Assembly (NCBI GenBank): GCA_051362555.1
Contig: CM120647.1
Coordinates: forward strand, 15,476,651-15,540,650
Length of the DNA: 64,000 nt
Reading direction: 5' to 3'
Source of the DNA: Lingula anatina
Taxonomy: Eukaryota > Animalia > Brachiopoda
Positions within the stretch are counted from its first letter, which is position 1. Every line of letters starts with the position of its first letter. The position numbers and the translations under genes are program-made. Of the stretch, positions 7,658 through 58,159 are shown one piece after another. Below the pieces are notes generated by a model that saw only the letters and a program-made list of their open reading frames with translations, had not been told where the DNA came from and made no database searches.

Positions 7658-8573
7658 ATGAAGTCTTGCGCTCTTCTTGTGCTCTTGGTGCTTTTTGCCA
7701 CTGTTGTCATAGAAGGTGAGAGGCACACAGTATTAATAATGACTTGAAATGTAAACTCTGAAGCAAAGAAAATAGATATGTCAGAACTGAGACCGAAAAC
7801 TAGTCAGACGGTATCTCCGCTAGGGCGAGATTTAATTAGAAATATTACCTCAGTATGACGTAACTTTACCAAAAGAGGTCGTGATCAACATCACACCCAA
7901 TAAGATAAACTAAAAATGTAAAATAGTTTATACATAAATAACAGAATCCAACTTAAGTAAGCGACAGTGTTAAGTAGTTCAGACTTTACAGATAGGCAGC
8001 TGCGAGTTCTTACTAACAGTGGTAATTTGCTTCCTTTTGAAACTCAGTGAAACTAAAGGACCATTCCCAGACCCTATAGTACTAACTGTAGGTTGATCTA
8101 TCTCCTAGGGTATTCTTAAGCGGCTTAGTTGTCTTTCACGCCTAATAAAGCTTCTAGGGAGTAATTAATTATCGTTTATCAGCTTCAGTTAACGTGTCAG
8201 ACCTCCAAGCTGAAAGCAATTTAGCGAGAAATTCCTTGGAGATGGATCGATCCTTTTAGTTCGATCTAGGTATGGGAACCCAGTGTAATAATTCAAGTTA
8301 GAGTTATCTAATTTGTATGCACAACCATTTTAGTTTCTTGCTTTTCTTCATTAACATTTGAATTGCGAAATTACGCATAAAATAAATGCATATGGACTTT
8401 CAGTAACACGTTTATATTTTGCATTTTTTATTTTGATATTAGACACAGCCGGACAAAGTGTAGCGCGTGCTACGTGCTACTGCTGTGGTCATAGGTGTCA
8501 TACCGACCATGGGCGATGCTACTGCATCGGAAGGCGCCCAAATTGCCGCTGTGCTGCAATCGATTACCCTTGA
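7658..8573 (+). CDS. Secreted cysteine-rich peptide, copy A (62 aa): MKSCALLVLLVLFATVVIEDTAG-QSVARATCYCCGHRCHTDHGRCYCIGRRPNCRCAAIDYP
   Basis: Exon 1 7658-7715 (GAAG|GTGAG, phase 1) and exon 2 8443-8573 (TTAG|AC); hydrophobic signal peptide; 8 Cys; homologous 3' exon from 9099 with AATAAA 9233-9238. Confidence 0.88.
8060..8285. mobile_element. Possible degenerate MITE in intron 1 of copy A
   Basis: About 230 bp absent from the homologous introns of B and H, with imperfect inverted ends (attcccagacc..actaa / ttagttc..ggtatgggaac); no clear TSD. Confidence 0.35.
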
Positions 8574-8879
8574 TAAATGGTGCTGTGATCCCATTGTTCA
8601 TGCCAGTATTTTCATTAATATAAATTCAGACTAGCTACTTGCTTAACATAAAAATGTTGTTAACTGTGCTTATCTGAGACTGATAAAACCGATTAGTAAA
8701 TTCCACAAGTCAATTTGGTGATATTGTTGTTAGAGATTATGAGAAAGAATTAATGGCCCATTAAAACAAAGTGTACTGACTCCACAGAAAAGTTTTCTTG
8801 ATAACAGATTAAGTTTGCCCAAATGCATCAGTTTCAAGACTGAAAAAAAAAAAAAAAAAAAAAAAAAAAAACAGATAAA

Positions 8880-8904
8880 TGTTTTTTTAGTTTTTTTTTC
8901 TAGA

Positions 8905-8939
<35 letters not shown>

Positions 8940-11900
8940 GGAGAGAGATTATATTATATAATGCAACCATATTATGTTCATTCAAGTCAGTTCATAGAAC
9001 AAATGCATATTGAGTTGTATATGGTCAGTTAAATGCAACGGCGTATTATTTTACAGTTTAAAATTACATTTTTTTAACATTTTTTTTTTTGTTTTCAGAA
9101 TAGCCACCCGTCGAGAGGAACCATGACCAGTTGAACATACGGAAGAAAACAGGAAACTAGTCAATCAGCTAAATGCAAAGCTGCTGTATTTGGACTTTTT
9201 TGTGAATATTAAGTTCAACAATAAGTGGTCACAATAAAGGTTGTAGTAAATGCACTGTATTTACTGCATCGTCAAAGCTCAGAATTTATTTTCTTTGTCG
9301 TTGTTAGAAATCGTTTGAATGCTTAGTACGTTTATTACACCGATGGGCAATGCACTAAAATTTAGAGTCTCTAAAATTAATTTCATAAACATGAATGAAA
9401 AAGTATACTTATCAAGTTCGCTTAATTGAAATCAAAAGCACTAACTTAAGTTATAGTAATGATTGGGTAATTTTGCGCACAGGTTAGTCATATAAATAAA
9501 TAAATAAATAAATAAATAAAAAAAAATACTGTTATTACATATTATACCAAGAAATAATGCAAGGTGATAATTCTTTGAAAATGACATTACAAGAAACGAA
9601 AAAAGTTTCTAGTGCAAATTATATGTAAGTGCTGTCGAACACTGACAAAAAGTTTGCAGATGTTTTCTTCTGGCTTTTTTCACATTCTCTCATTAATATA
9701 AAATCATATAAGCCAAAAGCAATACAAATATTATGCCTTTTGTTTTCCTTGGTACACGTACATGTAACTAAGTTGGTGTATGTTTTCATGAACTTCCTAA
9801 GTGACGTTTTTGCTCCAATTCCTCCACCGCACTGCTCTTCTGATACACGTTTTCCACGAGGTCTACAAGACCATGTCGCCACCTCTAGGCCGTACATCCC
9901 TTTGAACCGCCTTTGTACCTCGCCCCCTTCACTTTATCCATTAAATTTTTGGTGTCGGTCTTCAATTTTGCAATATAAGGACAGGAATTCGTACTGGGTG
10001 TATTTAAGATACATCTGTGATGAAAAGCCCGAAACCTCCGTTGATTCATGAATTTAAGAACAGTTTTTAAATCATAAACATATGTATGTGGTTTGCTCTA
10101 ATTCAAGGAACAACGAAAGATATACACGTAGCCCCTTTTCAACGAGGCGTTCAATCTGAGCAGAAAACCAGCACATGTGCTGTTTGTTATAGTATATGTA
10201 AATAGCAATATACAGACTTGACATTTAATATGGAATATTTCAAAGATAAACCTGGGTAAAAATGCATTATATTTTTCCGAAAACACCCGATCTCTTATAA
10301 GATATGCATTGTTCTGTCAAAAAATTATCCGTATGTCGGCAACTACTGCATAGAAGAATTTGAATTTCAGCTACAAGAGATCGGATTTGCAGTGCGTAAA
10401 ATGAGCTAAGCAGTGCTTTACAAAATTGTTGATCTGTAGCAGAATTTTGCGCAAAGGCAAACATTGGCAGACAGATTGTTGCTCCAAAAGGAACAGTCTG
10501 CACAGTTTAACAGAGTAATGTCCAGACTGGTGTACCTACACAGAGGCTATGGCCAATTTATCAAAATCTAACCACACGGATACAGGAACCACTGTCTTTC
10601 GGGATATGCTGCTGCAACTAACCAAATACCACCCAGTCCGTTCATGAGGGGTAAATTGCCACCAAAACGCGTTTTTCAAGGACGTTAGCGGACACTAAAC
10701 TGCTTTTAACAGGTTACTGGTTTTAACAAGTTAGAATACCAGGCGACCTCCGAGGAACCCACTGTAAACAGTAAAACACTGTCATCTGTTTCTCTAATGA
10801 ATTGGAGACCATGACCGTTTCTGGGTAGAGCACTGAAACCACGTACGAGGCTTACTTTACTGAGGTCAGATTTCACCTGTACTACTCAACTAGCCAAAAT
10901 AGAGTTTACGAACACCCAGAAGAAGCTTACGACGAAGCGTGTGCCGCGTCTAAAGTGACCAAAGTCGTTGACAACATCAGTATTTGGAGTTGATACCACA
11001 TTGGTGCCAAAACACCAATGGTAGTCATCGGCATGAACCTGAATTAGATCAAATAAAGGAATAATCTGGGAACCACTTGACTATCATTGTCTCCACTAAG
11101 CCATATTTCACACAACCCTCACATCTTTGTGCATGTAACAGTTATAGCGTGCCCATAAAGCAGCATCTAAAATGATCTTCCTTAGAGACGCTTCCATGTG
11201 TTTCAAAACGAGTGTCTTTACACCGCCCTGTATTTAATGCTACATAAACAAACCAATTAAATATAGACGATAATTATCCTTCTGCACGACGCTTGGAAAC
11301 TGAATTAAGACACGCAATGACCGTTAAACCTTATTTTTTATATTAGGAAACTAATTTTACTGGAAATTTCAGAACTTTTCCATAAATCCCAGACTTTTTA
11401 TCATGTTTTGTAAATAGAATCAGGCAATATAATATTTATTAGTTGAAAACGGGTTCATAAATTATGAAGTCACATTGGTGATCGTTTTAAGGCATATCTG
11501 CTGAAATTACCATTGAGATTAATCTTCAGTTTTATAATTGTTAAACATGCGCCACTTGTCTTTGACATTTAGAAACTTAATTGTTTACATACCACCTCAG
11601 ATGCGGAGCACAATAATGTAATGAGGACAGATGGTTAGCGCCTCTAGCGGGCGTTAATTAACTGTTTATAAACAAAATAAATTGACTAATTTCCATTGAA
11701 TTTGTAATTTTTTTTATCATGTACGTGGTAGATTATTTGCTAGAAAGTGACATCTTCCTCGCCAATCAACAGTAAATGTTGTACAACAATAACAAAGGGT
11801 TGACTTTATTTTCGAATTTGTTCCGTGTGCATTCAAAATAGAAGAAAGCATGTACACTTAAAAAGAAGTGATATATGTATATATGCGTGTGTGTGTGTGT

Positions 11901-12960
11901 GTGTGTGTGTGTGATGGTGGACTGCTGGTACACTTTGGACAAGCAGGTAATATCTGTCGGTAGAAGAGGCTTTAACAAATGGTCATTGCTTTATTACGTT
12001 GAGTTGTGTAATAATGATAAAGGAAATGTTTGAAACAAAATATCTTGTTGGGACAATATCTCATGTCGACGTTATTCTGTATATTTCCTTGTTGAAGACT
12101 GATAATTTTGCTCAATAACAGAGATAATTCAAATGGAAAACTGGTGTGAATTATCTAAATTTTGAAAGTTTTAGGTATTTTTTACAAATTCTGTGAATAT
12201 TCTCGCTTTTCTCACGATCTGGTTTTCTCAATATCCAGAGGTAGATTTTCAATAAGATGAGAAATAAGATATAGTGAAAATTAAATTCCAAAATTATAAA
12301 TTATGAGTAAAATAAAATGAAAGCTAAAAACAACAATAATTAAATTAAAATAATCTTAAATTAGTTTAAGGTAAATGCACAGTTCTTTGAAGATGTTGTA
12401 CGAAAGATGTGAATACGTCTGGTCTATTACAAATGCATCTTTGCTTGCCTTTATCTTATTAGTTCGATATCAGATAGTAAGATTTAATTAAAATAATGAA
12501 ACTATGCAAATTAAATTAAGTTGAGGTTATCACTTGTATGTAAAACAAATTGGAATTTTACCACGACAAAAAGGGTAATGGTGACAAAATTGTTTAGGTT
12601 GAAAAATGAGAGAGCGCTTCTGCTTTTAGACGTTGCTTTGACAAATGATAATGATTTTGTTGCATAACACCGTGAACAGTCGGTGTTGGAAACAGAATAT
12701 ACCTTCCTGGGTCCATATTTCATGACAATTTTATTCTGTGTTTCCTTAATGAAGATTGATAGGGATTTGCTTGCACTGAAACGTATAAATAGCGGCTTGG
12801 GTTGCAAATCTCATCGTAGAGAACTGATCCAGTCTCCTGCTACGACAACTTCCATTGGAACAATGAAATCGTGCGCTCTTCTTGTGCTCTTGGTGCTCTT
12901 TGTTGCTGTTGTCATAGAAGGTGAGAGACACAAAGTATTTAATTAAAAGTATTTAATAAT
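8880..12960 (+). repeat. Segmental duplication block 2 (copies at about 49690-55640 minus the Tc1 insertion, and about 57050-59850 plus 61700-62510)
   Basis: Collinear near-identity, reflected in paralogous spurious ORFs 9629-10051, 50580-50847 and 57680-58003. Confidence 0.9.
10210..11085 (+). mobile_element. Truncated, degenerate Tc1-like transposase relic carried in the duplicated unit
   Basis: Homologous to 59930-61560 and 62625-64000, which retain Tc1 C-terminal motifs; truncated at the same point (gaaccacttg|actatc) as 51085-51960 and 58160-59035. Confidence 0.6.
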
Positions 12961-13818
12961 GACTTGAAGTGTAAAATCTGAAGCGAAGAAAAGGGGTACG
13001 TCAGAACTGAGATCGTAATCTAGGCAGACGTTATCTCCGCTAGGGGGGAATTTAATCTGAAATGTTACATTAGTATGTCGTAATTTGACCAAAAGAGGTC
13101 GTGATCAAAATCACACCCAATAAGATATACTAAAAATGTAAAATTGTTTAAACATAAATTACAGCATCCAACTAAATAAAGTGCAGTGTTCAGTAATTCA
13201 AAATTTGCAGATAGAAGTGAGTGCTTACTGACAGTGGTATTTTGCTTCCCTTTGAAACACAAAGTGAAACGTATAATTCTGCCTTAATTTGTATTTCCAT
13301 AAACTATCTTGACACTGTCAAGATAGAAAATATCTCACTATATATGCAAAACCATTATAGTATCTTCCATGAGAAATGTCTGTTCTTTGTATTTCACTCT
13401 CAAAAATAAGCTAAAACAGCCAAAAAGATTATTTGTCACTACCGACAAATACCGGTAAGAAATTGAATGGAATGGAGACCAGAAAAATGTATTTGGAGTT
13501 CACAAGGGCATGGATAGTGCCACGCATTACCCACTACTAAGCAAAGTTGGAAAGAACGCAAAATTTAAGTTCCACTATGTTGCTTTCCTTCATTAACATT
13601 TAAATTGAGAAATAACGCGTAAAATAAATGCACATGGACTTTCAGTAACACCTTTATATTTTGCATTTTTTATTTTGATATAAGACACAGCCGGACAAAG
13701 TATAGCGCGTGCTACGTGCTCCTGCTGTGGACAAACATGTCATACCGACCATGGGACTTGCTACTGCGTCGGCAAGCCCCCGAATTGCCGCTGTGGTGCC
13801 AGCGATTACACAAAATAA
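12863..13818 (+). CDS. Secreted cysteine-rich peptide, copy B (63 aa): MKSCALLVLLVLFVAVVIEDTAG-QSIARATCSCCGQTCHTDHGTCYCVGKPPNCRCGASDYTK
   Basis: Exon 1 12863-12920 and exon 2 13685-13818 (AAG acceptor); TATA 12784; homologous 3' exon from 14381; AATAAA at 14502 and 14515. Confidence 0.85.
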
Positions 13819-14186
13819 ATGGTGCTGTGATCACATTGTTCATGCCAGTATTTTCACTAATATATATTCAGACCAGCTACTTTTTTTAACATAAATATGT
13901 TGATAACTGTGCTTATCTGAGACTGATAAAACCGATTATTAAATTCCACAAGTCAAATTGGTGATATTGTTGTTAGAGATTATGAGAAGGAATTAATGGC
14001 TCATTTAAACAAAGTGTACTGACTCCACAGAAAAGTTTTTCTTTTCATAACAAATTAAGTTTGCCTAAATGCATTAGTTTAAAGACCGAAACAGAAAACC
14101 GATATAAACGTTTCTTGAATTTTTTTTTCAAGAAAGAAAGAGAGAGAGGAGAGAAAATGAGAGTGAGCTGAGACAGAGAGAGCCAT

Positions 14187-14242
<56 letters not shown>

Positions 14243-14960
14243 TATATTATCTAAGGCAACCACATTATGTTCATTCAAGTAACTTAGTAGAACAAATGCA
14301 TATTGAATTATATATGGTCATATTAATGCAACGGTTTGTTATTTTACAGTTTAAAATTACATTTTTTGTTTTGTTTTCAGGATAGCCGCCCGTCCAAAGT
14401 AAGCATGACCAGTTGGACATACGGAAGAAAACAGGAAATTAGTCACTCAGCTAAATGTACAGCTGCTGTATTTGGACTTTTTTGTGAATTTTGAGTTCAA
14501 CAATAAATGGTCATAATAAAGAATGTAGTAAATACGCTGTATTTACTGCATTGTCAAAGCTCTAATTTTACTGCCTTTGTCGTTGTTGGAAATCGTTTGA
14601 ATGCTTGATATGTGTATTAAGCCAATGTGTCATTAGCATTAATATTAGAGGCTCTATCATTTATTTCGTAAAAATGGATGAAAAACTAAATTCATCAAGT
14701 TCGCTTTCTTTAAACGGAATGCATATATATTACCTTCAGATGTAGTTATGGTGGGGCAATTTTGTGCATATAACAGGTTAGTCATATCAAATTTTTTGTG
14801 GCCATTGTTATGATATATTATAAACTGTATTTATGTATCATTAAAACAATGGCTACAGCTGGCTCTGCAGAAAAAAAAAAACATTTTTTCATAACAATTA
14901 CCGTTTGCCGAAAGGCATAAGTTTAATGACCAAAGCAAAAATAGCGACAGAAATGTTTTT

Positions 14961-21144: not shown

Positions 21145-21202
21145 CTTCTATGACAACAGTGGCAAAGAGTACTATGAGCACAAGAAGAACGCAAGACTTC
21201 AC
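21145..21202 (-). pseudogene. Copy C exon 1 (inverted; ATG mutated to GTG)
   Basis: Minus strand reads GTG-KSCVLLVLIVLFATVVIE-G|GTGAG, with the TATA box at 21274-21281. Confidence 0.85.
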
Positions 21203-23018: not shown

Positions 23019-23158
23019 ACACAGCTGGGCAAAGTGTAGCTAGTGCTTCGTGCGCATGCTGTGGTCACACGTGTAGCAGCGACCATGGGAGTTGCAGGTG
23101 CGGCGGAAGGCCACCCCACTTCTACTGCCTTGCAGTTGATCAGACAACAACAAATTAC
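23019..23158 (+). pseudogene. Copy C exon 2: DTAG-QSVASASCACCGHTCSSDHGSCRCGGRPPHFYCLAVDQTTTNY
   Basis: TAG|AC acceptor at 23017-23018; Cys7 TGC>TTC; detached from exon 1 by the inversion; intron 2 homology ends near 23540 and no exon 3 follows. Confidence 0.85.
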
Positions 23159-23770: not shown

Positions 23771-25119
23771 CATCATCATTTAGAGCCTATAGTGTTCCAC
23801 TGTTAGACAAAGGCCTCAGCATGCTTTTTCAATTGTTTCCTATCCTGAGCCTCAGATTTCCAGTTTGGCCAAGGTTTCTTCTTCCACGACTTCCAGTAGT
23901 CCCTCCATCGTTTCACTGGCCTTCCTCTTTTTCTTTGTCCATACCTTGGGGTCCATTCTGTAAGCCTGATTGTCCACCTATTGTCCTTCATTCTTTTGAC
24001 ATGTCCTGCCCACCTCCATTTCATTTCTTTAACTGTGAGCAGTACGTCCTTCACTTTGGTCTGTTCACGTAACCATACATTCGTTTTCCGCTCTCTTGGA
24101 TTGATGTTCAACATAATTCTTTCCATCTTTCTCTGAGCTACTTGTAGCTTGTGTTCCATCGAGGCATTCAGTGCCCAGGTCTCTGAACCATAGGTGATTG
24201 CCGGCAGCACACAAGCATTGAACACTTTCTTTTTCAGGCGGGTAGGAAGGTTGCTCTTGAAGATGTCATTGTGCTTCCCATATGCTGCCCATCCTGCTTT
24301 TATCCTTCGTTGGATTTCTTTCTCCAGTGTTCGATCACTAAGGCTGAACCGTTGCCCAAGATATATATACTCTTCCACTGCTTCTATCTCTTTGGTGTTG
24401 ACTTTCACTGTGCAAGGGGTGGTTAGTGGTCCAAACATCACCTTTGTCTTGCTGGTGTTCATCTTTAGCCCATTTTTTGCGCTTTCATCTGCTAACGCCT
24501 GTAGCATTTCTTCTAGGTCTTTTGCATCATCTGCTACTATTATGATGTCGTCTGCAAACCTAAGGTGATTGAGCCTGGTACCATCTATGTTTATGCCCTT
24601 GTCTTGCCAGTCTAGATCCCTGAATATACGTTCCAATGCTGCTGTGAACAGTTTAGGAGAGATTGTATCTCCTTGGCGTACACCTTTCTTGATCCTGATC
24701 TTATTGGTGGTCTTGTGTAGTTTGACTGTTACAGAGCTATCGGTGTTTATGTCTCTGAGGACGTCTATGTATCCATCTTCGATCCCTAGATCTTGCAGGG
24801 ATGCCAGTATATACTGGGTTTCTACTGAGTCGAAGGCTTTTTCATAATCAACGAATGCTACACATAGTGGAATGTTATACTCGAGACATTTCTCTTTGAG
24901 CTGGTTGACAGTGTGCATATGATCAGAAGTGGTGTACTGGCCTCTGAAACCTGCTTGTTCCTTTGGCTGCGCTTCATCTAGTTGTCTTGTTAGCCTTTCG
25001 GTCAATATTTTCGTGTAAATCTTGTAAAAATTAGAAAGTAGGCAGATGGGTCTGTAATTCTTGATGTCTTTCCTATTGCCCTTTTTGAACATTATGATCA
25101 TGTTGGCGTTCTTCCATGC
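23771..25119 (-). mobile_element. 5'-truncated RTE-clade LINE (reverse transcriptase fragment, open frame)
   Basis: ORF 23803-25152 has NYRPICLL, QAGFR, FVDYEKAFDSV, GVRQGDTISPKLF, LRFADD and KWRWAGHV; (TGA)n 3' tail; 9-bp TSD TACACAGGT at 23762-23770 and 25120-25128; empty paralogous site near 2090. Confidence 0.92.
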
Positions 25120-27304: not shown

Positions 27305-28402
27305 ATGAAGTCTTGCGCACTTCTTGTGCTCTTGGTGCTCTTTGCCACTTTTGCTATAGAAGGTGAGCGATACCATGCACTTAAGGTGTTATAAACAGTA
27401 AATTCTGAAGCAAAGTATAGAAATAAACTCACAGTTGAGTGCAAGCTTCAGGCAGAGGATATATCTCGGCTTAGTAGAGATTGATTTAGAAATTTTACGT
27501 TGATATATCAAAACCTGACTTACAGAGGCCGTAGTTAGAAACATATCTAATAAGATATACTTAAATTTAGAAAAATATGATTTATTGAATTTAGCATCCA
27601 TGAAGTGGCGGTGATCAGCAATTCAAAATGTGCAGATAGGCTGTTGTGAGTGCTTAGAAATTGGTCATTCCTTCGTTTTAAAACTGTATGTGATATATCA
27701 AGCGCCCATCTTAAATAATTACATCTTTCTTTTCAGTTAATTTTCATGACGTTATTATAATTTATTATCCTTATCGCATAATCATCTTTACTTGCCCCTT
27801 TCGTACAGTATTCCTGTGATTCCTGTGACTCCTCGCCACAAAAGTTTTCATGTAAAAAATAAACAGAGCAAAAATGTCTTTCAATGTCTGGAGTATTATA
27901 AAATAATTGTAATATTTAAATGTATTTGCATTTCTATAACTTATCTTCTCACTGTTGACGTAAGTTAAACTATATCTTAATATACATTCAAAACGATTTC
28001 AAGGGTCTCTTTTCCACAGTAGATATTTGTTGATCACTCTCAAAAATAAGCTAAAATCTAACACTTACAACAAATAATTGTGAAAAATTCCACAGTATCT
28101 CGTACAGGAAAATGTAATTGGAGTTTAGAAAGGGCCTCGATGATGCCGCGAATTAATGGTACCATTCCGTAGTGAAATTGAAAAGAACATGGCTATTTTG
28201 TTCCGCTGTATTACTTTACTTCACTAACATTTAGATTTAGAAATTTCACTCAAAATAAACACAAATGGTTTTTGAGGAACATGCTCATCGTTGCCATTTA
28301 ATTATATTTTATACAGAAACATCCAAGTAACCTAGCCATGTAGCATTTGCATCTGCTATGATCACTTGTTTCAAAGAATGAAATTGAACAAATGGGCATG
28401 AA

Positions 28403-28442
<40 letters not shown>

Positions 28443-28678
28443 TTTCCTCTCTGTTAATTTATATCACTACCATCTAGAAAATTTAAGTAAGATATATTCC
28501 TCTGGTCTTTTGAAAAGATGCTTAATTTTGCCATTTGTATTTTTATATAGATACATCCGGGCAATGTACAGAACCTATATGCATCTGCTGTGGTAACGTG
28601 TGTAATAACGTCCTTGGAATTGGAATTTGCAGGTGCCTTGGAGTCCCACCCAACTGCCACTGTCCGATAATTGATTAG
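27305..28678 (+). CDS. Secreted cysteine-rich peptide, copy D (61 aa, 9 Cys): MKSCALLVLLVLFATFAIEDTSG-QCTEPICICCGNVCNNVLGIGICRCLGVPPNCHCPIID
   Basis: Exon 1 27305-27362 and exon 2 CDS 28551-28678; donor AG|GTAAAA at 28689 lies after the stop; exon 3 from 29263; AATAAA 29397-29402; TATA reduced to TATAAT. Confidence 0.8.
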
Positions 28679-28991
28679 ATCACATAAGGTAAAATGTGTT
28701 GTGATGAGATTGTTCATAGCAGTGTTTTCACAAATAAAAGCTACATTTTAGACCAGCTACATGTTACACATAAAGAATGTTGATTATTGTCCAAGGCTGA
28801 GCCTGATAAACTGATTAGTAAATTCTGCAAATCAATTTGGTGATGTTGTTGTGAGAAATCATGAGAGTATATTAATGGCTTGTAAAAACACCACCACACA
28901 ACAGCTTTTTAATAGCAAATACAGTTTGACCAACGTTATTAATTTAGAGCCCGAAAAAAATAACAAGACGAACGGTCTTGTAAATTCTATT

Positions 28992-29022
<31 letters not shown>

Positions 29023-29523
29023 GGAGGGGGGTGGAAGGAGAATTAGAGAACCAGGCTGTACGTTTGTATGCCATATACTCTGATTGTAATATGTGGCGTT
29101 AATTTCCATTCAATTTTGTGATAAAGTCTAATGCAAGTTATATAATGTGCGTTCAAATAAGTAAATAGAAAAAAAATGAACATCGTGTTGTAAATGATCA
29201 GTTAAATACAATGGTTAATTATTTAATATTTTATAATAACAATGCTTTTTTTTTGTTCGCAGTTGACCCTTCCATCGAGGGTAAGCATGACCAGTTGAAA
29301 CTAAAGAAGAAAACAGAAAACTAGTCACTCAGCTCAATGTAAAGCTGTTGTATTTAGATATTTTTGTGAATTTTGAGTTCAACAGTTAGTGGTCATAATA
29401 AAGATTGAGTAAATGCGTATTTACTGCTTTGTCAAAGGTCTCATTTTGCTGCCCTTGTCTTTGACGTTTCTTTTCGATCCGATGCGTTGGGAATCTTTTG
29501 CTTAAAATTAATTATATCTAAAA

Positions 29524-30165: not shown

Positions 30166-30344
30166 CCCATTAAAAATTATTCCCTTATAGGCCATTTATT
30201 CAAGGTACATAGGCCCATTGTACACACATCCCTGGAATTATATATCTGCGTATAACGTAGTGTGACGTCTAATAATATTGCATATTAAACATCATAAAAA
30301 TTGAAAGTTTACTTTATAATTAGACTTGCTTGTTCTCCGAATAA

Positions 30345-31448
30345 CTCCATTACTCTACATAATGTTCTTACTTTTTTGGATCGTAAAATCCCTAACTATG
30401 CAAGGTTACTTTTTATTGACTATAGTTCTGCTTTTAACACGATATCGCCTTTTAAACTTCACGAAAAACTTATTAACTCTCTCCATTTTAGTAAATCACT
30501 TAGTAATTGGATTTTAAATTTCTTAATTAATCGTACTCAACAGGTCAAAGTCGGCAATAACTTTTCCAAGACTATAGAGATAAATACTGGCACGCCTCTC
30601 TTATATTCTCTGTTTACATCCGACTGTGTTGCTTCGTATCCTGATTGCTTGATTGTTAAGTTTGCGGATGATACCACCTGCGCTGGCCTTATTAGCACTT
30701 CCGAGTCTGACTATCGAAATCAAGTTTCGGCCCTTGTTTCATGGTGCTCTGAAAACGACCTCGAGCTTAATGTTAAAAAGACAAAAGAAATTATTGTAGA
30801 TTTTAGGAAAAACCCAACAGAAATTAGCCATCTTACGCTGAATGGTTCTGAGGTTGAAATAGTCAGACATTTCAAATTTCTTGGCATACATATATCTGAT
30901 GATCTTAAATGGCACATTAACATAGATGATTTTGTCCGCAAAGCTCAGCAAAGACTACTTTCTACGACGATTGAGGTCATTCTATGTCAACCAAGAACTG
31001 CTGGCAAAATTTTACCGGGCTGTGATTGAGAGTGTGCTAACACAATCTTTTACCGTCTGGTACAGTAGTGCTTCAGTAGAGAACAAGAATCGCATGAATC
31101 GCGTAGTAAAAACTGCCAGGCGCATTGTAGGTAGGGACCTGCCGTCTATTGAATGTTTGTATACGAGACAAGTGCTCAAGAAAGTAAAGTCAATCACGAG
31201 TGACCCTGGTCACCCAGCGAATAGCCTACTTATGCATATGTCAACAAGCCGACTGCGGTCATTAAAAGCAACCTCCACGCGCACTAAGAATAGTTTTTAT
31301 CCATCAGCAGTACGTATTTTTAATGAACAAAATGTATTTTAATAATTCCACTGTATCACATTTTATCGACAGATCATACCAATTTTCATTTTATATTTGT
31401 ATAAATATGACAATAAATTATTATTATTAAATTATTATTATTATTATT
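30345..31448 (+). mobile_element. 5'-truncated, frameshifted LINE reverse transcriptase fragment (Rex1/Babar-like)
   Basis: YARLLFIDYSSAFNTI, KFADDTT and LNVKKTKEIIVDFRK in ORF 30301-31029, continuing after a frameshift in 30926-31342 (FYRAVIESVLT, TKNSFYPSAVR); AATAAA then a (TTA)n tail at about 31412-31448. Confidence 0.85.
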
Positions 31449-34400: not shown

Positions 34401-36038
34401 TGCCGTTTTGGTGGTGAAACTCAATTTATAATATTTTCGTATGTTGTTAACAATGTATTAATTGTGGAATATTGAATCTCAAACGAAAAGTTGTTATGCC
34501 TTCAAGTTTAAGAAGCAATGCAAATTGTGCCTATAATTTGTGTGTAATAATATTGGATATTAACCAAGACAGAACCAATAATATTGGATATATTGGATAT
34601 TAACCAAGACGCTTGAGTCGGTCCTCTCTAACCCCCCTTTACGAAAAAGAAGCCATGCCATTGGACAATGCGACCTCTGCGGTTACGTCATTTCCTGAAT
34701 ATGATTGTGGAGTGGACCGACTCAAGCGTCAAAGGGGGACTTTGGATTTACGGTTTGATTGTGCGTATGCCATGCACGGAATTTACAAACGAGCGACGGG
34801 ATGATGCAGCCTGCAGTATTAGCGGTAAGCGTGCCAAGTTTTAGAACGCATCGATGCCCGGCAGTATTTTATTTCGATTATTATGTTTAAAATTGTGGAA
34901 TCTTGTTTCACAAGCTTACTCTATTTTATTGTCTCTATGGAGGTATATGGGGACTTTACGACATTCGGTTTGAAGGCTTTAACCACTTGTTATAGTTTAT
35001 TTTTGCATTGTATTAGATTAATGTGGCAGTCCAAGGTTGTCCTATGTGGTTTTCAAGTTTATGCACCCGGTTTTAATATCATTTAGCGATTTTACAACAA
35101 TCGTTTACTATCCAATCAAGGTGACAGCCGACCGTGAGTATTGTTTACAAAAGTATTTAAGTTTAGAACTGCAAAAAGCAGGAAAAGAAATATTGTGAGT
35201 ACACTTTTGCTTTTAAAGTAGTTTTGACAAATGATAATTGTTTTATTGCGTAATGCTGTGTATAAATGATTAAGGAAACGTTTGAAACAGAAAATGTGTT
35301 GAAGCGACCATATTTCATTGTAATTTATAGTATATGTTTCCGTGCTGACGATTATTTGGAAGAAAAATGAACAATTTGTATTGATCCGATTATTAGGAGA
35401 GGTAAAAAAACCAATAGATATATGACTGAGTCTGTATACAGTTGGTGACGTCTGGAGTTGAAAATCAAACCCCGGTGGATTATTCATATTTTGAAAGGTT
35501 TAGACACATATTACCAGCCAGAAAATTAGAATTAGCCCAAAGGCATGTCTTTTAAAGCAATGTTTCTAGTGTGTAAAATACAGCGTCATGTGCAATTTTC
35601 CTCAATATTCGCAATAAAGGTCAGGGTCAGTTGAAGATATTATGAAAGCTTCAAGGTAAACCTTTAGCGTGCAGTAGCTACCTTTTAACCAAATTAACAG
35701 ATGTGTTTGCAAATTTTTGAATCGCTTATTTTGTACGTGGCAATTAGATGCTAGAGAGTAAGATTGCTTTCACCAAATAAGACATTTTGAGAAATGATAA
35801 TGATTTTATTGTATAACACTGCGTATTAATGATTCAGGAAAAGTTTGAAACAGAAAATATCTTGCTGGGACCATATTTCATGGCGATCTGTTTCGGTTTC
35901 CTTGCTGAGGATCAATAGATATTTCCTTGCACAGAACTGTATAAATAGCGGCTTGGGATGCGTAAGATAGCAAGTCTCTTAGAAGAGAACAAATTCCTGA
36001 GATTTCAGTCTCCTGCTAGGACAACTTCCATTGGAACA

Positions 36039-37435
36039 ATGAAGTTGTGCGCTCCTCTTGTGCTTTTGGTGCTCTTTGCCGCTGTTGTCATAGAAGGTGA
36101 GTGATACAAAGTATTTATAATGACTTGAAGCGTAAGTACTGCCGAAAGGAAAAGAGGTATGTCAGAAGTGAGGCCGTACTCTTGGCAGACAGTATCTCAG
36201 CTCAGGCAAGATTTAATAAGAAATGATACCTTCTATGACATGAATGCTTACTGAGATTGTTAGTTTGCTACCTTTTGAAACACACAGTGAAACTAATGAT
36301 TGTGCCTTAATTAGTATTTCCATAAATTATATTGGCACTGTCAAGTTAGGAAATATCTTAATATGTATTTAAAACCATTTTAGTCTCTTCTATCAGGGGT
36401 GTCTGTTCTTTGAAGATCATTCTCAAGAATAAGCTAAAACAATCCAAAAAGTATTTGTCACTAAGAAAATATACCAGGAAGAAATTGAATTTAATGTAGA
36501 CCAAGAAATGCACCTGGAGTTCAGAAAGGGCATAGATGGTGACACACATTACTGACACCATTTTTAAGTATTGCAAATAACACATCCTTTAAGTTCCAAT
36601 TTGTTATTTTCTTTCATTAACAATTGAATTTAGAAACCTCGCACAAAATAATTGACCACGGAATTTTAGTAAAGGGCTAATATTTTCCATTTTTCCATTT
36701 TGATGTAGACACATCCGGGCAACCTCTGGCGTATGCTTCGTGCACCTGCTGTGGTCACACGTGTAGCAGCGACCATGGGAGTTGCGAATGCCGCGGAAGT
36801 CCACCCAACTGCTACTGTGCTGCAGCTGATCACACAACAAGGTAAAAGGTTTTGCAATCAGATTGTTTATCGAAGTATTTTCATAAATACATATTTAGAC
36901 CAGCTGCTTGTTACACACAAAAAAAAATATTGATTATTGTCCGAACCTTAGACTTCTAGCTAATTAGTAAATTCTGCAAGTCAATTTTTATGATATTGTT
37001 GTGAGAAACCATGAGAGTGACTTAATGGCTTGTAAAAACACCACCACAGAAAACTATTTAATAACAAATACAGTTTGCCCAAAAAACCGAAAGACCGAAA
37101 AAATAACGAGATGGAAATTCTATGAATGAATGAGAGAGAGAGAGAGGGGTGGAGGAGGGAGGGGAAGGTGAAAAGAGGATTAAAAAATAAGGTTGTACGT
37201 GTGTATGTCATTTACTTTGATTGTCATATGTGGTGTTTATTTCCATTCACTTTTGTCATATAATCTAATGCAAGCTATACAATGTGCGTTCAAATAAGTA
37301 AATAGAAAAAAAATAAATATCGTATTGTAAATGTTCAGTTAAATACAATGGTTCATTATTTAAAAGTTTATAATAACAGTTAAGAACAGTTTACACATAT
37401 TTTTTGTTTGCAGAAGACCCTTCTTTCGAGGGTAA
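36039..37435 (+). CDS. Secreted cysteine-rich peptide, copy E (70 aa, 3 coding exons): MKLCAPLVLLVLFAAVVIEDTSG-QPLAYASCTCCGHTCSSDHGSCECRGSPPNCYCAAADHTTRRPFFRG
   Basis: Exon 1 36039-36096, exon 2 36709-36841 (AG|GTAAAA, phase 2), exon 3 37414-37435; TATA 35940; AATAAA 37550-37555. Confidence 0.85.
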
Positions 37436-37704
37436 GCATGGCCAGTTGGACATAAAGAAGAAAACAGGAAACTAGTCACTCAGCTAAATGTAAAGCTGCT
37501 GTATTTGGACATTTTTTTGTGAATTTTGAGTTCAACAATAAGTGGCCAAAATAAAGATTGTAGTAAATACGTTGTATTTACTGCATTATCAAAACTCTAA
37601 TTTTACTGCTTTTGTCGTTGTTGAAAATAGTTTAAATGCTTGATACGTATATTAAATCGATGGGCAATGCACCACTGAAAATTAGAGGCTCTATCGTTTA
37701 TTTC

Positions 37705-39139: not shown

Positions 39140-42100
39140 TTTATATATATAGTTTATTTATTAAAGTGTCGCATATTCTTAAAACATAAAATACAAAAAC
39201 AATATAAAGTAAACTACTAATTAAAAGAATACCCAGCCATATTTGGCTTATGAGACACAGTTAAAAGATTTCCGTCTTTTAAACATTTTAAAAACTGTCT
39301 TAGCTAATAAAAACTGGTATTCGCAATTCATAATAAAAACAAATTTTTCTGTATCACTATAATTGCTAAAACATGGATTAAGATAGTGACATTGATCTAA
39401 AAGTTCTTGTCGTAAATATGAATAAAAAGGACATATTAACAGAAAGTGAATCTCATCTTCTGTATTTTTTCTATCGCAATAAAAACATAGTCTTTCATTT
39501 AAAAGGGGTTCGTATAAAACGGCCAGATTCTACATGTAAAGGTAGACTGCCACAGCGCAACTTAGCTAAAACGCTACGGTAAGGTCTCGGCATTGCACAG
39601 TGAAGATATGTCTCCGTTTTCAAATCTTTTTTGAAGGATCTATAATGCCTCAGTTTATTTCCATTGGGGTTTCCTTTGTCATTCCACAATTTACAAAACC
39701 ATTTCTGTTCGTAAAATTGAAAAAGAGACCTTCTAATTTCTTTTTTAGTGTTTTTAAATACATAAGACTCATTGCTTAACATGCTGTTCAGTTTATACTG
39801 TGTGAGAAGTTTAATGGTTTTCACACCCCAAGAGCGTTTCTACTTTACTGACCAATTAAAAACTTTACTTAAAAAGCGGCCGATGTTTATATTTTTAAGT
39901 CTACAATAGTATCTGAACACTTCTATGTGTTGAATAGCTAGGCTAGGCATCCACCCCATGTCACCCTGCTTTGCCACATTAGACGTCGTTTTGGTTACGC
40001 CAAGGAAGATACGCATTGCGCGAGTTTGAACATTGTTGACAAATCGGTATTCTTTTTGTCCCCATAATGACGCACAGTACATTAAAACTGGTTCTACTGA
40101 AGACTTATATAGTTGTGTGAAAACGGCATAAGTCATGCCACAGCTTTCAAAATATTTTGCTGTCAAGACGCCAAGTGATCTACTGGCTGCTTTGGCCAGT
40201 TCCCTTACAGCATACGTTAAGTCCAGGTGTTCTGTTAACCAAATGCCAAGATATTCATATTTATCGACCATTTCAAGTCTTTGCTTTCCACTCCACTCAA
40301 AGTTAGATTTTTCAAATGATTTTGCACGAAAATGAATCACATTCGTTTTTGATGAATTAAGCTGAAGTTTCCATTTGTAGCAACAAGCAGAAACAAGGTC
40401 CAGCATTTTCTGAAGATTGTCTTCATTTTCAGCTACGACAACAATATCATCAGCATACATAAGAAGGTTAATTGTTGTTCCATCGATGTCAATACCAAGA
40501 TTTGCCTCACGCAAAGAGTCTGCTAGGTCATTTATATAAATCCCAAATAATGCTGGCGACAGCAAACATCCTTGCATGACACCACGTGTAATTTTAAAAG
40601 GTTCGGTTAATGACCCATTTAGTCGTATACGGGCGGTGACATCGTCATACATGGATATGATTGCTTGGAAAAAGCAACCATTTATCCCCAGTTGTTTCAG
40701 TTTAAACCACAAGCAATCCCTATTTAAACTGTCAAACGCCCTTTGCAGGTCAATAAAGCAGGCAAAAGTTTGCTTGTTAGATTTTATTCTGTTATCTAAG
40801 ATGCTATGTAAGGTGTGGACATGATCCTCGCAGCTCCTGTCCTTTCTGAAGCCGTTTTGTTCATCCGCCAAGTAGGGCGTACTCTCAAACCACGTAGTTA
40901 AGCGTTTATTAAATATATCGCCGTAAATCTTGCACGGTACTGAAATTAGTGTTATACCTCGGTAAGTTAGAGGTTTATGTGGGTCCGTCCCATTTGGTTC
41001 TACTATTGGATTCAGCAATCCGGTTTTCCAAATATCTGGGACTACGCCTTTTTCGAAGCATGCACTGATTATCTTATGCAAAATCTCGACGCAAACTTCA
41101 TTCTCTAATGCTTCTGCCGGGATTGCATCAATGCCGGCAGCCTTACGCATTTAAGTATTCTTTACTGCCTCCGCAACTTCATCTCGTCGTATTGGTTGGT
41201 TCAGGATATTTGCATCGTACATGGGATGGAAGTCATCGTTTTTAAGCATGCTGAGAATTGTACTGTAATGATTTTCATCAAAATCCGTGGTATTATTATT
41301 TACATTGTATAAACACTCATACTGGGATCTCCATTCGTTCATTATCCATTCCTGTTAGGAGAGAGCCGTCGCGGTCTATCACCTCAGTTGGGATTTTACA
41401 TTTTCTGTTATTTGCAATGCCGATTTTCCCTATGTCTCTCCAAAATCCCTGAGAGTTAGAAATTAATGTATCATGCATCTCCATCTGCTTATTCCGTTGG
41501 TAATTACGCTTGTATTTTCTATGGAGCCTGTCGAAACTCTTGCGCTCGATACAACATACAGATTTCAAAGTATTTTTACGTTGAGGCGTCGGACATTTTA
41601 ACCAAGCTCGTTCCGCATCGCAGGTTTTATTCCACTGATTTTGTAATTCATCATTCCAATAGGGTTTTGATTTCGATTTGTGACGTTTTGCATTTCTATG
41701 GCTTTGTCGTAACAAACCACTTTTCTTCAATTCATCGTGTAAATAGTGTTCAAATTCTGCGTACGCCGCATTGACATCGTTTCGATTTTCTAGTTGATAC
41801 TCGATGCGATTCATACATTCGTGAAGTTGTTCGCACGCTCCTTTTCTTGTGCATAAGAAATTGTCGGGGAAATTATTAATGTTAATAACACAGGGATTTT
41901 CTTCATTTGGTTCATCTAATACTGGTAGTTTTACACCAGATTTTCTCAGGTCAATCGTCCAGTTTAACAAAGAATGATCAGGTACTGATAGAGGCGTTGA
42001 AAGCTGGAGTTCTGATATTAAGTCTGACATTGTATGTATCTGAAAGTCCTCGTATAGGGATAATTGTTCATGAGGTGCTAACACATAGTCCACGACTGAC

Positions 42101-46061: not shown

Positions 46062-46952
46062 ATGAAGTCTTGCGCTCTTCTTGTGCTCTTGGTGCTCTTT
46101 ACCATTGTTGTCATAGAAGGTGAGAGGCACAAAGTATTCATAATGACTTGAAGCAAAGAAAAGAGATATGTCAGAACTGAGACCGAAAACTAGTCAGTCA
46201 GCGAATTACTGATACCATTCCATAGTGAAATTGATAAGAACATGCTTTTTTTGTTCCACTGTATTACTTTACTTTACTAACATTTAGAATTTAGAAATTT
46301 CACTCAAAATAAACACAAATGGTTGTTGAGTAACGTGCTCATAGTTGCCATTTAATTATATTTTATACAGAAATATCCAAGCAACCTAACCATGTAGCAT
46401 TTACATCTGCTCTGATAATTTGTTTCAAAGCATCCAAAGCAAGTTAATTTATATCACTACCATCTGGAAAATTTACGTAAAATATATTCCTCAGGTCTTT
46501 TGAAAATATGCCTATCTTTGCCATTTATATTTAGGTTTAGATACATCCGGGCAATGTAGTGAACCTACGTTCATCTGCTGTGGTAACGTGTGTTCTACCA
46601 GCTTTGGAATTTGCAAGTGCTTTGGAAGGCCACCCAACTGCTACTGTCCGCAAGCTGTAATTGATCACACAAGGTAAAATGTGTTGTGATGAGATTGTTC
46701 ATAACAGTGATTTTTATACCAGCTACATGTTTCACATATAAATGTTGATTATTGTCCAAAGCTTAGACTGCTAAACCGATAAGTAAATTCTGCAAGTCAA
46801 TTTGGTGATATTATTGTGAGAAACCATGAGAGTGAATCATGACTTGTAAAAACACCACCATAAAACTTTTTCATAATAAATATAGTTTGCCAAAAGCTAT
46901 TAATTTAGAGCCCGAAAAGAAATAACAAGATAGACGGTCTTGTAAATTCTAT

Positions 46953-46995
<43 letters not shown>

Positions 46996-47262
46996 GGGGG
47001 AGGGAAGGTGAGGTGACAGGAGCATTCAAGAACCAGGCAGTACGTGTGTATGCCATTTACTCTGATTGCCATATGTGGCGTTTATTTCCATTCACTTTTT
47101 CATATAATATAATGCAATCTATATAATGTGCGTTCAAATAAGTAAATAGAAAAAATAATAAATATCGTATTGTAAATATTCAGTTAAATACAATGGTTCA
47201 TTATTTAAAAGTTAATAATAACAATATGTTTTGTTTGCAGAAGACCCTTCCCTCGAGGGTAA
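46062..47262 (+). CDS. Secreted cysteine-rich peptide, copy F (70 aa, 3 coding exons): MKSCALLVLLVLFTIVVIEDTSG-QCSEPTFICCGNVCSTSFGICKCFGRPPNCYCPQAVIDHTRRPFPRG
   Basis: Exon 1 46062-46119, exon 2 46541-46673, exon 3 47241-47262; TATA 45984; AATAAA 47375-47380. Confidence 0.8.
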
Positions 47263-49667: not shown

Positions 49668-50085
49668 ATGAAGTCTTGCGCTCTTCTTGTGCTTTTTAGA
49701 TTTTTTTTTTCGAGAGAGAGAGAGAGAGAAGGAGAGAAAAATGAGAGTGTCGAGGGACAGAGAAAGCCATGGTGTGCGTGTGTGTGTGTGTGTGTGTGAA
49801 GGAGAGAGATTATATTATCTAATGCAACCATATTATGTTCATTCAATTAACTTAATAGAACAAATGCATATTGAATTGTATATGGTCAGCTTAATGCAAC
49901 GGTTTAATATTTTACAGTTCATATTTACAATATTTTTGTTTTCAGAATAGCCTCCCGTCTAGAGGAAGCATGACCAGTTGAACATACGGAAGAAAACAGG
50001 AAACTAGTCACTCAGATAAATGTAAAGCTGCTGTATTTGGACATTTTTGTGAATTTTATGTTCAACAATAAGTGGTCACAATAAA
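49668..50085 (+). pseudogene. Copy G: deletion derivative with the 5' part of exon 1 fused to the 3' part of intron 2 and exon 3
   Basis: ATGAAGTCTTGCGCTCTTCTTGTGCT at 49668 runs directly into intron-2 sequence (AG/GT microsatellites); exon-3 acceptor at 49944-49945; AATAAA 50080; TATA region partly deleted. Confidence 0.85.
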
Positions 50086-55553: not shown

Positions 55554-55986
55554 ATGAAGTATTGCGCTCTTCTTGTGCTCTTGGTGCTCTTTGCCGCTGT
55601 TGTCATAGAAGGTGAGAGACACAAAGTATTAACAATGACTTGAAGTGTAAAATCTAGAGCAAAGAAAAGAGGTACGTCAGAACTGAGACCGTAATCTAGG
55701 CAGATGTTATCTCCGCTAGAGTGAAATTTAATTTTAAATCTTACATTAGTAGGTCGTAACTGGACTAAAAGAGGTCTTGATCAAAATCACACCATTGTTT
55801 ATATGTGCATTACAGCATCCAACTAAATAACGTGCAGTGTTCAGTAATTCAAAATTTGCAGATAGACGTGAGTGCTAACTGACAGTGGTATTTTGCTTCC
55901 TTTTGAAACACAAAGTGAAACGTATAATTATGCCTTAATTTGTATTTGCATAAATTATCGTGACGGTGTCAAGTTAGAAAGTATCT

Positions 55987-56069
<83 letters not shown>

Positions 56070-56499
56070 ACTGAAAAATATGCTAAAAGAATCAAAAGAT
56101 TATTTATCACTAAAACAAAAAAGAAAAAAATACCAGTAAGAAATTGAATGGAATCTAGACAAGGAAAATGTATTTGGAGTTCACAAGGGCATGGATAGTG
56201 CCACGCATTACTTATTCCTGAGCGGAATTGGAAAAAAACACAATTTTACGTTCCACTTTGTTACTTTCCTTCATTAACATTTGAATTGAGATATTACGCA
56301 CAAAATAAATGCACATGGACTTTCAGTAACACGTTTATATTTTGCGTTTTTCATTTTGATATTAGACACAGCCGGACAAAGTATAGCGCGTGCTACATGC
56401 ACCTGCTGTGGCCAAACGTGTCATACCGACAGTGGGACTTGCTACTGCGTCGGAAGTCCCCCTAATTGCCAATGTGGTGCCCGCGATTACCCAAGATAA
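55554..56499 (+). CDS. Secreted cysteine-rich peptide, copy H (63 aa): MKYCALLVLLVLFAAVVIEDTAG-QSIARATCTCCGQTCHTDSGTCYCVGSPPNCQCGARDYPR
   Basis: Exon 1 55554-55611 and exon 2 56366-56499; TATA 55475; homologous 3' exon from 57065 (the polyA hexamer there reads TATAAA at 57188). Confidence 0.87.
55989..56066. repeat. (AT)n microsatellite in intron 1 of copy H
   Basis: TA run. Confidence 0.95.
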
Positions 56500-56866
56500 A
56501 TGGTACTGTGATCATATTGTTCATGCCAGTATTTTCATTAATATAAATTCAGACCAGCTACTTGTTAAACATAAAAAATGTTGATAACAGTGCTTATCTG
56601 AAACTGATAAAACCAATTAGTAAATTCCAGAAGTCAATTTGGTGATATTGTGTGAGAGATTATAAGAAGGAATTAATGGCTCATTTAATATAAGTGTACT
56701 GACTCCACAGAAAAGTTTTTTCAAAGTTTGCAAAAGTTTGCCCAAGTGCATCAGTTTCAAGACCGAGAAACAAAAACGGGATAAACGTTTCTTAAATTTT
56801 ATTTCAAGAAAGAAAGAGAGAGAGAGAAAAGAGAAAATGAGAGTGAGCTGGGACAGAGAAAGCCAT

Positions 56867-56925
<59 letters not shown>

Positions 56926-58159
56926 TTATATTATCCAATGGAACCATATTATGTTCATTCAAGTAACTTAATAGGACAAATGCATATTGAATTATATATG
57001 GTCAATTTAATGCAACGGTTTATTATTTTACAGTTAAAAATGACATTTTTTGTTTTGTTTTCAGGATAGCCACCCGTCGAAAGTAAGCATGACCAGTTGG
57101 ACATACGGAACTCCAAACTCATCTAAATGTTAAGCTGCTGTATTTGGACATTTTTTGTGAATTTTGAATTCAACAATAAGTGAATATTATAAAGTTCGTA
57201 GTAAATACGTTGTATTTACTGCATCGTCAAAGCTCAGAATTTATTTTCCTTGTTGTTGTTAGAAATCGTCTGAATGCTTAGTACGTTTATTACACCGATG
57301 GGCAATGCACTTGAATTTAGAGGTCTATCATTTATTTCATTAACATGAATGAAAAAGTAAACTTATCAAGTTCGCTTTATTGAAATCAAAAGCACTAACT
57401 TAAGTTATAGTAACGATTAGTAATTTGCGCACAGGTTGGTCATATCAAAAAAAAAAAAATAATAATTACAGTTATCACATTATATATCAAGAAATAATGC
57501 TAGGGGATAACTCTTTGGAAATGACATTACAAGAAACGAAAAAGTATACTAGTGCAAATTATATGTACGTGCTGTCGAACACTGACAAAAAGTTTGCAGA
57601 TGTTTTCTTCTGGCTTTTTTTATATTCTCTCATTAATATAAAATCATATTAGCCAAAAGCAATAAAAATATTATGCCTTTTGTTTTCCTTGATACACGTA
57701 CATGTAACTAACAGTTGGTGTATGTTTTCATGCACTTCCTATGTGACGTTTTTGCTCCAATTCCTCCACCGCACTGCTCTTCTGAGACACGTTTTCCGCG
57801 AAGTCTACAAGACCATGTCGCCACCTTCAGGTCGTACTGCCCACACTCCTTTGAACAGCCTTTATACCTCGCCCCCTTCACTTTATCCATTAAATTTTTG
57901 GTGTCGGTCTTCAATTTTGCCATATAAGGACATAAGGAATTCGTACTGGATGTATTTGAGATACATCTGTGATGAAAAGCCCGAAACCTCCGTTGATTCA
58001 TGAATTTAAGAACAGTTTTTAAATCATAAACATATGTATGTGGTTTGCTGTAATTCAAGGAACAACGAAAGATATACACGTTGCCCCTTTTCAACGAGGC
58101 GTTCAATCTGAGCAGAAAACCAGCACATGTGCTGTGTGTTATAGTATATATAACTAGCA

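What the first reader, a model, noticed from the sequence alone, without database searches (positions are those of the whole stretch)
36831..37435. Splice-site switch for an amidated C-terminal tail: the donor itself reads Arg-stop
Seen: in E and F exon 2 ends AG|GTAAAA. Splicing adds exon 3 to give ...RRPFFRG* (E, copy 0) or ...RRPFPRG* (F), whereas reading into the intron gives AGG TAA (R-stop). In A, B and H the donor GT has become AT (ccttgataaa, caaaataaat, ccaagataaa), fixing a tail-less form, and D stops 10 nt before an intact donor. Established: a C-terminal Gly is the PAM amidation signal and RR is a convertase site. Inference: the family toggles a cationic amidated tail, or a releasable PFFR/PFPR-amide tetrapeptide, both by intron retention and by point mutation.
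Basis: partly seen in the sequence, partly recalled or inferred. Interest (0 to 1): 0.7.

Follow-up and report, generated by a model that had tools for sequence, protein, structure and literature searches.

The report
Peptide tail lost by donor shift
In a cluster of small cysteine-rich peptide genes, likely from a lamp shell (brachiopod), some copies add a short tail that is likely amidated; RNA reads show tail-less relatives splicing seven bases later, so the difference is likely fixed between gene copies rather than a switch inside one gene.

Summary
The sequence observation holds. E and F end exon 2 in AG|GTAAAA and splice in frame to RRPFFRG*/RRPFPRG*; A, B and H have AT there; D stops 10 nt early. 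The switch interpretation mostly fails. Arg-stop is what any consensus AG|GTRA phase-2 donor reads. In RNA from the same species label, tailed relatives are spliced, ending RRPFGFG* or RRPFGLG*. The terminal Gly is kept while its neighbours vary, which supports amidation. 'Donor-dead' A/B-type transcripts do not retain the intron: many splice at a GT 7 nt downstream, which is present in all 7 copies, so the stop becomes exonic. AT versus GT is one change on the tree, and A-clade exon 3 holds no Gly tail in the E frame. No intron-2 retention was seen, but E and F themselves were only weakly tested. The only credible homologues are two uncharacterised Lingula anatina models. Verdict: an apparently undescribed lineage-specific 8-Cys peptide family whose C-terminus changes by mutation around two tandem donors; no shown regulatory switch.

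The parts
35940..35945 (+). TATA-like box of copy E
   Evidence: present upstream of A, B, D, E, F, G, H
36039..36096 (+). E exon 1 coding part: signal-peptide-like MKLCAPLVLLVLFAAVVIE, phase-1 donor
   Evidence: intron-1 joint 36094->36707 GT..AG in 9 reads of X7; signal peptide judged by eye
36709..36841 (+). E exon 2: 8-Cys core C-x-CC-x3-C-x6-C-x-C-x6-C-x-C
36842..36848 (+). E upstream (tail) donor GTAAAAG, with in-frame TAA at 36843-45
36849..36850 (+). E second GT, 7 nt downstream (AAG|GTTTTG); use in E not observed
36842..37413 (+). E intron 2 (572 nt), with an internal AATAAA at 37312
   Evidence: depth 0 in all intron bins in 4 runs, only X7 having reads
37414..37435 (+). E exon 3 coding part: tail (R)RPFFRG and stop
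   Evidence: spliced relatives
37550..37555 (+). E poly(A) signal AATAAA
162..183 (+). Copy 0 exon 3, near-identical duplicate of E; rest of gene outside the window
7658..9278 (+). Copy A: exon 2 from 8443, stop TGA 8571-73, AT at old donor 8573, used donor GT 8580, exon 3 from 9099 as 3' UTR
12863..14560 (+). Copy B: exon 2 from 13685, stop 13816-18, AT at 13815, second GT 13822, exon 3 from 14381
21145..21202 (-). Copy C exon 1, inverted, ATG replaced by GTG (pseudogene)
23019..23158 (+). Copy C exon 2 (7 Cys, phase-0 GT donor); no exon 3 found in the window
27305..29284 (+). Copy D: 9 Cys, stop TAG 28676-78, intact GT 28689, exon 3 from 29263 with vestigial PFHRG behind a TGA
46062..47262 (+). 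Copy F: exon 2 46541-46673, donor 46674, second GT 46681, exon 3 from 47241, tail RRPFPRG*
49668..50085 (+). Copy G: truncated exon 1 running into intron-2-like sequence, no exon 2, exon 3 from 49946 (pseudogene)
55554..57193 (+). Copy H: exon 2 from 56366, stop 56497-99, AT at 56496, second GT 56503, exon 3 from 57065

Best explanation
These are tandem three-exon genes for small, likely secreted 8-cysteine peptides, likely of a lingulid brachiopod, in which E- and F-type copies splice at the upstream of two GT donors 7 nt apart to add a short RRPFxxG tail that is predicted to be amidated, while A-type relatives splice at the downstream GT and so keep the stop, a difference likely fixed per gene copy rather than switched within one gene. 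The upstream donor is phase 2, so it removes the TAA and opens the tail frame of exon 3. When it is mutated (one change in the A/B/H ancestor), the existing +7 GT takes over and exon 3 becomes 3' UTR. D lost the tail separately by an early stop. The tail most likely stays attached to the core (Arg-Arg-Pro is a poor convertase site, recalled). PAM would turn the Gly into an amide, tuning charge, stability or target binding of what is most likely a host-defence peptide (inferred).
For: Spliced tailed reads: 10 reads ending H-T-T-R-R-P-F-G-F-G before 37433 (agreement 0.99); 707 reads ending Y-I-T-R-R-P-F-G-L-G before 14400 in X8 (agreement 0.93). Gly codon differs synonymously (GGG in DNA, GGA in reads) while the two residues before it change. 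+7-donor joints: 8579|9099 GT..AG in 61 reads of X8 and 8 of X9; B equivalent 51 reads; two more allele types with stop then AAG| in 179 and 37 reads. Second GT in 7 of 7 copies. A/B/H one side of a 100/100 branch, 1 change. dN below dS in 10 of 10 exon-2 pairs among A, B, C, E, H, so tail-less A/B/H look functional. Lingula model XP_013403638 ends DHPR-KK-RAPFSSVSMTS, which fits the +7 donor with exon 3 in another frame (my reading of a predicted protein). Arg-stop is generic.
Against: Most reads are not from these copies: 111 of 10906 laid in X8, 154 of 3540 in X7 and 152 of 3711 in X9 were 99+% alike. E's own exon-2/exon-3 joint was not listed, and F and H were never laid. Retained E-type introns might not map to the A/B introns at 85% or to E at 95%, so retention in E/F is only weakly excluded. 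30 joint rows and 543 loose-end rows were not shown. The commonest tail-less A-type form in X8 (773 reads, joints 8594/8595/13836/13837->9092) does not use the +7 donor and is unexplained. Amidation, signal cleavage and function have no direct evidence. E's core is net -1, unlike a typical cationic antimicrobial peptide. The root is unknown, so gain of the upstream donor is not excluded.
Confidence: 0.7

Rival explanations
1. Within-gene switch by alternative 5' donors: E (AAG|GTAAAAG|GTTTTG) uses both GTs, giving tailed and R-stop forms from one gene without intron retention.
For: Second GT kept in 7 of 7 copies. In E it has the AAG| context used by expressed A-type alleles. The upstream donor matches only 6 of 11 consensus positions.
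Against: E's second site matches 4 of 11. The listed tailed loose ends agree 0.93-0.99 with the upstream-donor form. No such joint was listed, but E's exon-2 end had no coverage.
Confidence: 0.12
2. One reading: regulated retention of intron 2 gives the R-stop form.
For: It is the last intron, so a retained form could escape junction-dependent decay (established knowledge, recalled). E and F introns contain AATAAA.
Against: The stop is a by-product of the consensus. Intron-2 depth was 0 on E and under 1 on A/B against hundreds on exons. Donor loss led to donor shift, not retention.
Confidence: 0.07
3. The tail is a separate signal: a convertase cuts after RR and releases PFxx-amide.
For: Dibasic RR and a terminal Gly are present in all 4 coding tails; PC1/3 and PC2 cut C-terminal to dibasic sites (PMC9070308 passages).
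Against: P1' is Pro in all four, which I recall blocks cleavage (no citation found). Motif-only prediction is right for about 35% of sites (PMC3499383 passage). The product would vary (PFFR, PFPR, PFGF, PFGL).
Confidence: 0.08
4. The Gly is incidental and the peptide is not amidated; tails drift nearly neutrally.
For: The tail has been lost at least twice (A clade, D). Two Lingula models end in other tails without Gly. n is small.
Against: Gly kept in 4 of 4 coding tails plus D's vestige, with a synonymous change, while the adjacent residues vary.
Confidence: 0.15

Closest known systems
Lingula anatina uncharacterized LOC106168921 (XP_013403637) and LOC106168922 (XP_013403638)
   Same: Same family: 37 of 44 residues identical to E exon 2, same leader; models on a contig of the same length with consecutive accessions.
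   Different: Automatic models only. LOC106168921 appears to fuse two tandem copies through a 5' UTR. Neither shows the RRPFxxG tail.
CHH / CHH-L (and ITP / ITP-L) alternative splicing in arthropods
   Same: One Cys-rich core with an amidated or a non-amidated C-terminus, chosen at the exon level (PMC8541221 passages).
   Different: There both forms come from one gene and differ after residue 40. Here the forms are seen in different copies or alleles, through a 7-nt donor shift.
Mussel CRP-I family
   Same: Lineage-specific secreted Cys-rich peptides with high inter-individual diversity, pseudogenes and assumed C-terminal amidation (PMC10138031 passages).
   Different: CRP-I has a six-Cys C-C-CC-C-C knottin array, a propeptide with a dibasic site and four exons. 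Here there are eight Cys (C-CC-C-C-C-C-C), no propeptide and three exons.
Cryptic donor activation after a +1 G>A splice mutation; stop codons at phase-2 donors
   Same: The same mechanics; phase-2 GT(A/G)A gives TAA/TGA (PMC2809761 passage). Cryptic activation is recalled textbook knowledge.
   Different: Here it became the fixed state of a gene subfamily under purifying selection and removes a whole amidation signal.
Agouti/ASIP-type knottins
   Same: Only Foldseek row (E 7.2, TM 0.37); both end in C-x-C-x6-C-x-C (ASIP pattern recalled).
   Different: Not significant, model pLDDT 54, VIA-align found nothing at Z 2 or more; cysteine number and spacing differ.

Membership tests
PAM-amidated peptide precursor | Gly as last residue of the spliced product | tested here: met
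   E, F, copy 0 in DNA; two spliced variants in RNA
PAM-amidated peptide precursor | Signal peptide, entry to the secretory pathway | tested here: inconclusive
   Hydrophobic conserved 19-residue exon 1 and invariant T-x-G-Q; judged by eye, no predictor run
PAM-amidated peptide precursor | Amide shown on the mature peptide | not testable with these tools
   needs mass spectrometry
Splice-switched amidation (CHH/CHH-L type) | Both tailed and tail-less mRNA from the same gene | tested here: inconclusive
Splice-switched amidation (CHH/CHH-L type) | Stop at the donor is special, not generic | tested here: not met
Regulated intron retention | Read depth across the intron | tested here: not met
   A/B intron-2 bins under 1 against 250-535 on exon bins in X8; E intron bins 0 (low depth)
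Convertase-released amidated oligopeptide | Dibasic site before the peptide | tested here: met
   RR in 4 of 4 coding tails
Convertase-released amidated oligopeptide | Cleavable P1' residue (not Pro; rule recalled) and a conserved product | tested here: not met
   Pro follows RR in all four; products PFFR, PFPR, PFGF, PFGL
Mussel CRP-I knottins | C-C-CC-C-C array and propeptide with KR/RR | tested here: not met
Big defensins | Prodomain with dibasic site, hydrophobic N-terminal domain, six-Cys C-terminal domain | tested here: not met
   no Pfam match
Scorpion short toxins (PF05294) | Pfam match | tested here: not met
   0 of 7 exon-2 peptides match; Atlas score 0.77 is within chance range
Antimicrobial peptide (functional class) | Antimicrobial activity | not testable with these tools
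   core net charge -1 to +4

The most novel reading that the evidence does not exclude
Two GT donors 7 nt apart act as a three-way C-terminus selector for a new brachiopod peptide family: upstream donor = amidated RRPFxx tail; downstream donor = bare core; downstream donor with the stop mutated = exon 3 read in a second frame behind a KKR site (as LOC106168922 suggests). E-type genes, where both donors have AAG|GT context, switch between them in a regulated way.
Probability: 0.12. Interest if true: 0.6.

Novelty: new member of a known kind. Interest (0 to 1): 0.35.

Why it matters
Brachiopod secreted peptides are little studied. This is a strongly but selectively expressed family (3 of 7 runs laid) with a cysteine spacing that matched nothing in Pfam or the PDB, and with natural tailed and tail-less versions for testing what an amidated tail does. 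It shows in RNA how one donor mutation removes an amidation signal without killing the gene. It is also a caution for the scan: a stop inside a phase-2 donor is expected and is no sign of a switch.

Tried and rejected
No whole genome is held. The run search listed no RNA holder and no DNA run, only 9 runs by species label. X1, X2 and X4 laid 0 reads on E (no test). X3 laid only on repeats. Pfam on 7 exon-2 peptides: one chance row, E 0.74. PDB sequences: one row, E 9.1. Homologue search at 22-83 aa: none. Atlas: best 0.75 and 0.77, chance range. AlphaFold2 model pLDDT 54; Foldseek no match at E 0.001 or below, VIA-align none at Z 2 or more: uninformative. P0003 (1315 aa, 22 short stretches) was rejected as a repeat-driven match. 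Positive selection on exon 2 was not found. Paper searches for five family motifs gave 9 papers unrelated by title and for three accessions 0. Supplements of PMC4595640 and PMC13425148 hold neither the two motifs nor (second paper) the accessions. Gerdol et al. 2018 on Lingula immunity (reference seen) is not held and may describe this family. No source for the P1' proline rule was obtained. Earlier scan findings: none.

Full report
Context. Self-comparison shows a tandem cluster of related genes among transposon remains. Copies A, B, D, E, F and H have three exons: a 19-codon hydrophobic leader, an exon for a 38-44-residue Cys-rich core, and a last exon. C has an inverted exon 1 and no exon 3; G lacks exon 2; copy 0 is cut by the window edge. 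The core spacing in A, B, E and H is C-x-CC-x3-C-x6-C-x-C-x6-C-x-C. Pfam, PDB sequence and fold searches gave nothing significant. A profile search of 1.84 billion representatives gave 3 proteins: two uncharacterised Lingula anatina models and one repeat-driven match. The first is 84% identical to E exon 2. The window is therefore likely from a lingulid brachiopod (inference).

Observation. Confirmed at base level. E: donor GT 36842, TAA 36843-45, exon 3 from 37414, Gly-stop 37430-35. F is equivalent. A, B and H have AT at the aligned site; D stops 10 nt upstream of its GT.

Is Arg-stop special? No. At a phase-2 intron the exon's AG plus the intron's G is AGG, and GT(A/G)A makes the next codon TAA or TGA (enumerated). 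Farlow et al. state this as a general rule (PMC2809761, passages read).

RNA. Nine runs were listed by species label only; 7 were laid in two calls. On E at 95% likeness, X1, X2 and X4 gave 0 reads and X7 gave 39, all from non-identical alleles or paralogues. Intron 1 was spliced (9 reads). All intron-2 bins were 0. Ten reads ended in a spliced H-T-T-R-R-P-F-G-F-G before the stop (my translation of the loose-end consensus). On A+B at 85% likeness, X7, X8 and X9 laid 3540, 10906 and 3711 reads (154, 111 and 152 of them 99+% alike; some lie on repeats), and X3 lay only on repeats. In X8, 707 reads carried a spliced Y-I-T-R-R-P-F-G-L-G before the stop. So the tail frame is real, and its Gly persists while the two preceding residues vary.

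The 'dead' donors. A joint 8579|9099 (GT..AG) stands in 61 reads of X8, 8 of X9 and 0 of X7; the B equivalent stands in 51 reads of X8. Two further allele types (179 and 37 reads) have a stop followed by AAG| at the same +7 position. Intron-2 bins of A and B have depth under 1 against 250-535 on exon bins in X8. Loss of the upstream GT thus shifts splicing by 7 nt and makes the stop exonic; it does not cause retention. This second GT is present in 7 of 7 copies. A larger class in X8 (158+74+332+209 = 773 reads, also in X7 and X9) keeps about 15 more intron-like bases, then TTTTCAG and A-type exon 3. This is either a genomic deletion of most of intron 2 or a third donor in an allele absent from the window. 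It is also tail-less, and I could not resolve it.

Evolution. A, B and H form one side of a 100/100 branch, so AT versus GT needs one change; 29 of 500 shuffles were as low. Their exon 3 in the E frame gives IATRREEP*, IAARPK* and IATRRK* (G: IASRLEEA*), with no Gly. The 22 tail bases are 55-68% alike between the two clades, against 78-93% for the UTR behind them. D lost its tail independently. Exon 2 shows dN below dS in 10 of 10 pairs. The root is unknown. A predicted A-like Lingula unit ending DYTTR plus a further tail hints that GT is ancestral. The neighbouring model ends DHPR-KK-RAPFSSVSMTS, which I read as the +7 donor with the stop replaced and exon 3 in another frame (compare the frames); this is an inference from a predicted protein.

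Processing. A terminal Gly is the amidation signal (PMC2575521 legend). RR is followed by Pro in all four coding tails. I recall that this blocks convertases but found no citation; motif-only prediction is right in about 35% of cases (PMC3499383). Release of a tetrapeptide is therefore unlikely. Core net charges run from -1 (E, D) to +4 (A). The tail adds one or two Arg, so R-R-P-F-x-x-amide rather than charge is the shared feature. A defence role is inferred by analogy with mussel CRP-I (PMC10138031 passages) and is untested.

Comparison and verdict. It works like CHH/CHH-L in yielding amidated and non-amidated ends (PMC8541221 passages), but across copies rather than within a gene, as far as the data show. 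It is not a member of CRP-I, big defensins or PF05294. My searches found no description in print (listings only; supplements in 57, 92, 93), but Gerdol et al. 2018 could not be read, and bioRxiv supplements are closed. Shown: gene anatomy, spliced tails in relatives, the +7 donor shift, one AT/GT change. Inferred: organism, secretion, amidation, function. Not shown: any switch within one gene. Interest 0.35.

Noticed in passing
window 8594-9092 and 13836-13837 (read joints): The commonest tail-less A-type mRNA (773 reads in X8) keeps about 15 intron-like bases plus TTTTCAG: near-complete genomic loss of intron 2 or a third donor in an unseen allele.
   Followed up: partly
P0002 (XP_013403637): The RefSeq model appears to fuse two tandem copies through the second copy's 5' UTR; likely an annotation artefact.
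   Followed up: partly
P0004 (XP_013403638): Paralogue with a shortened Cys loop and a KKR-led tail that matches another frame of exon 3.
   Followed up: partly
window 21145-21202 (-) and 23019-23158 (+): Copy C has its promoter and exon 1 inverted relative to exon 2 and has lost exon 3.
   Followed up: partly
window 49668-49950: Copy G joins a truncated exon 1 directly to the microsatellite of intron 2, deleting exon 2.
   Followed up: partly
window 36711-36722 and equivalents: Invariant T-x-G-Q in all 7 copies suggests signal cleavage before Gln and an N-terminal pyroglutamate, so tailed peptides may be blocked at both ends.
   Followed up: no
window 36783-36818 and equivalents: The C-x-C-x-G-x-P-P-N-C-x-C segment resembles a Bowman-Birk inhibitor loop one residue shorter (pattern recalled); protease inhibition is worth assaying.
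   Followed up: no
window 4773-6278 (-), 23803-25269 (-), 30298-31342 (+), 39840-44000 (-): A DDE_Tnp_1_7 transposase and three reverse-transcriptase elements lie between the gene copies.
   Followed up: partly
window 52325-53070: Large inverted arrangement of 18/39/42-nt tandem repeats, foldback-element-like.
   Followed up: no
loose ends at 7715: Many reads carry an exon 2 starting T-A-G-Q-A-G-G not present in the window, so the family has further expressed members.
   Followed up: no
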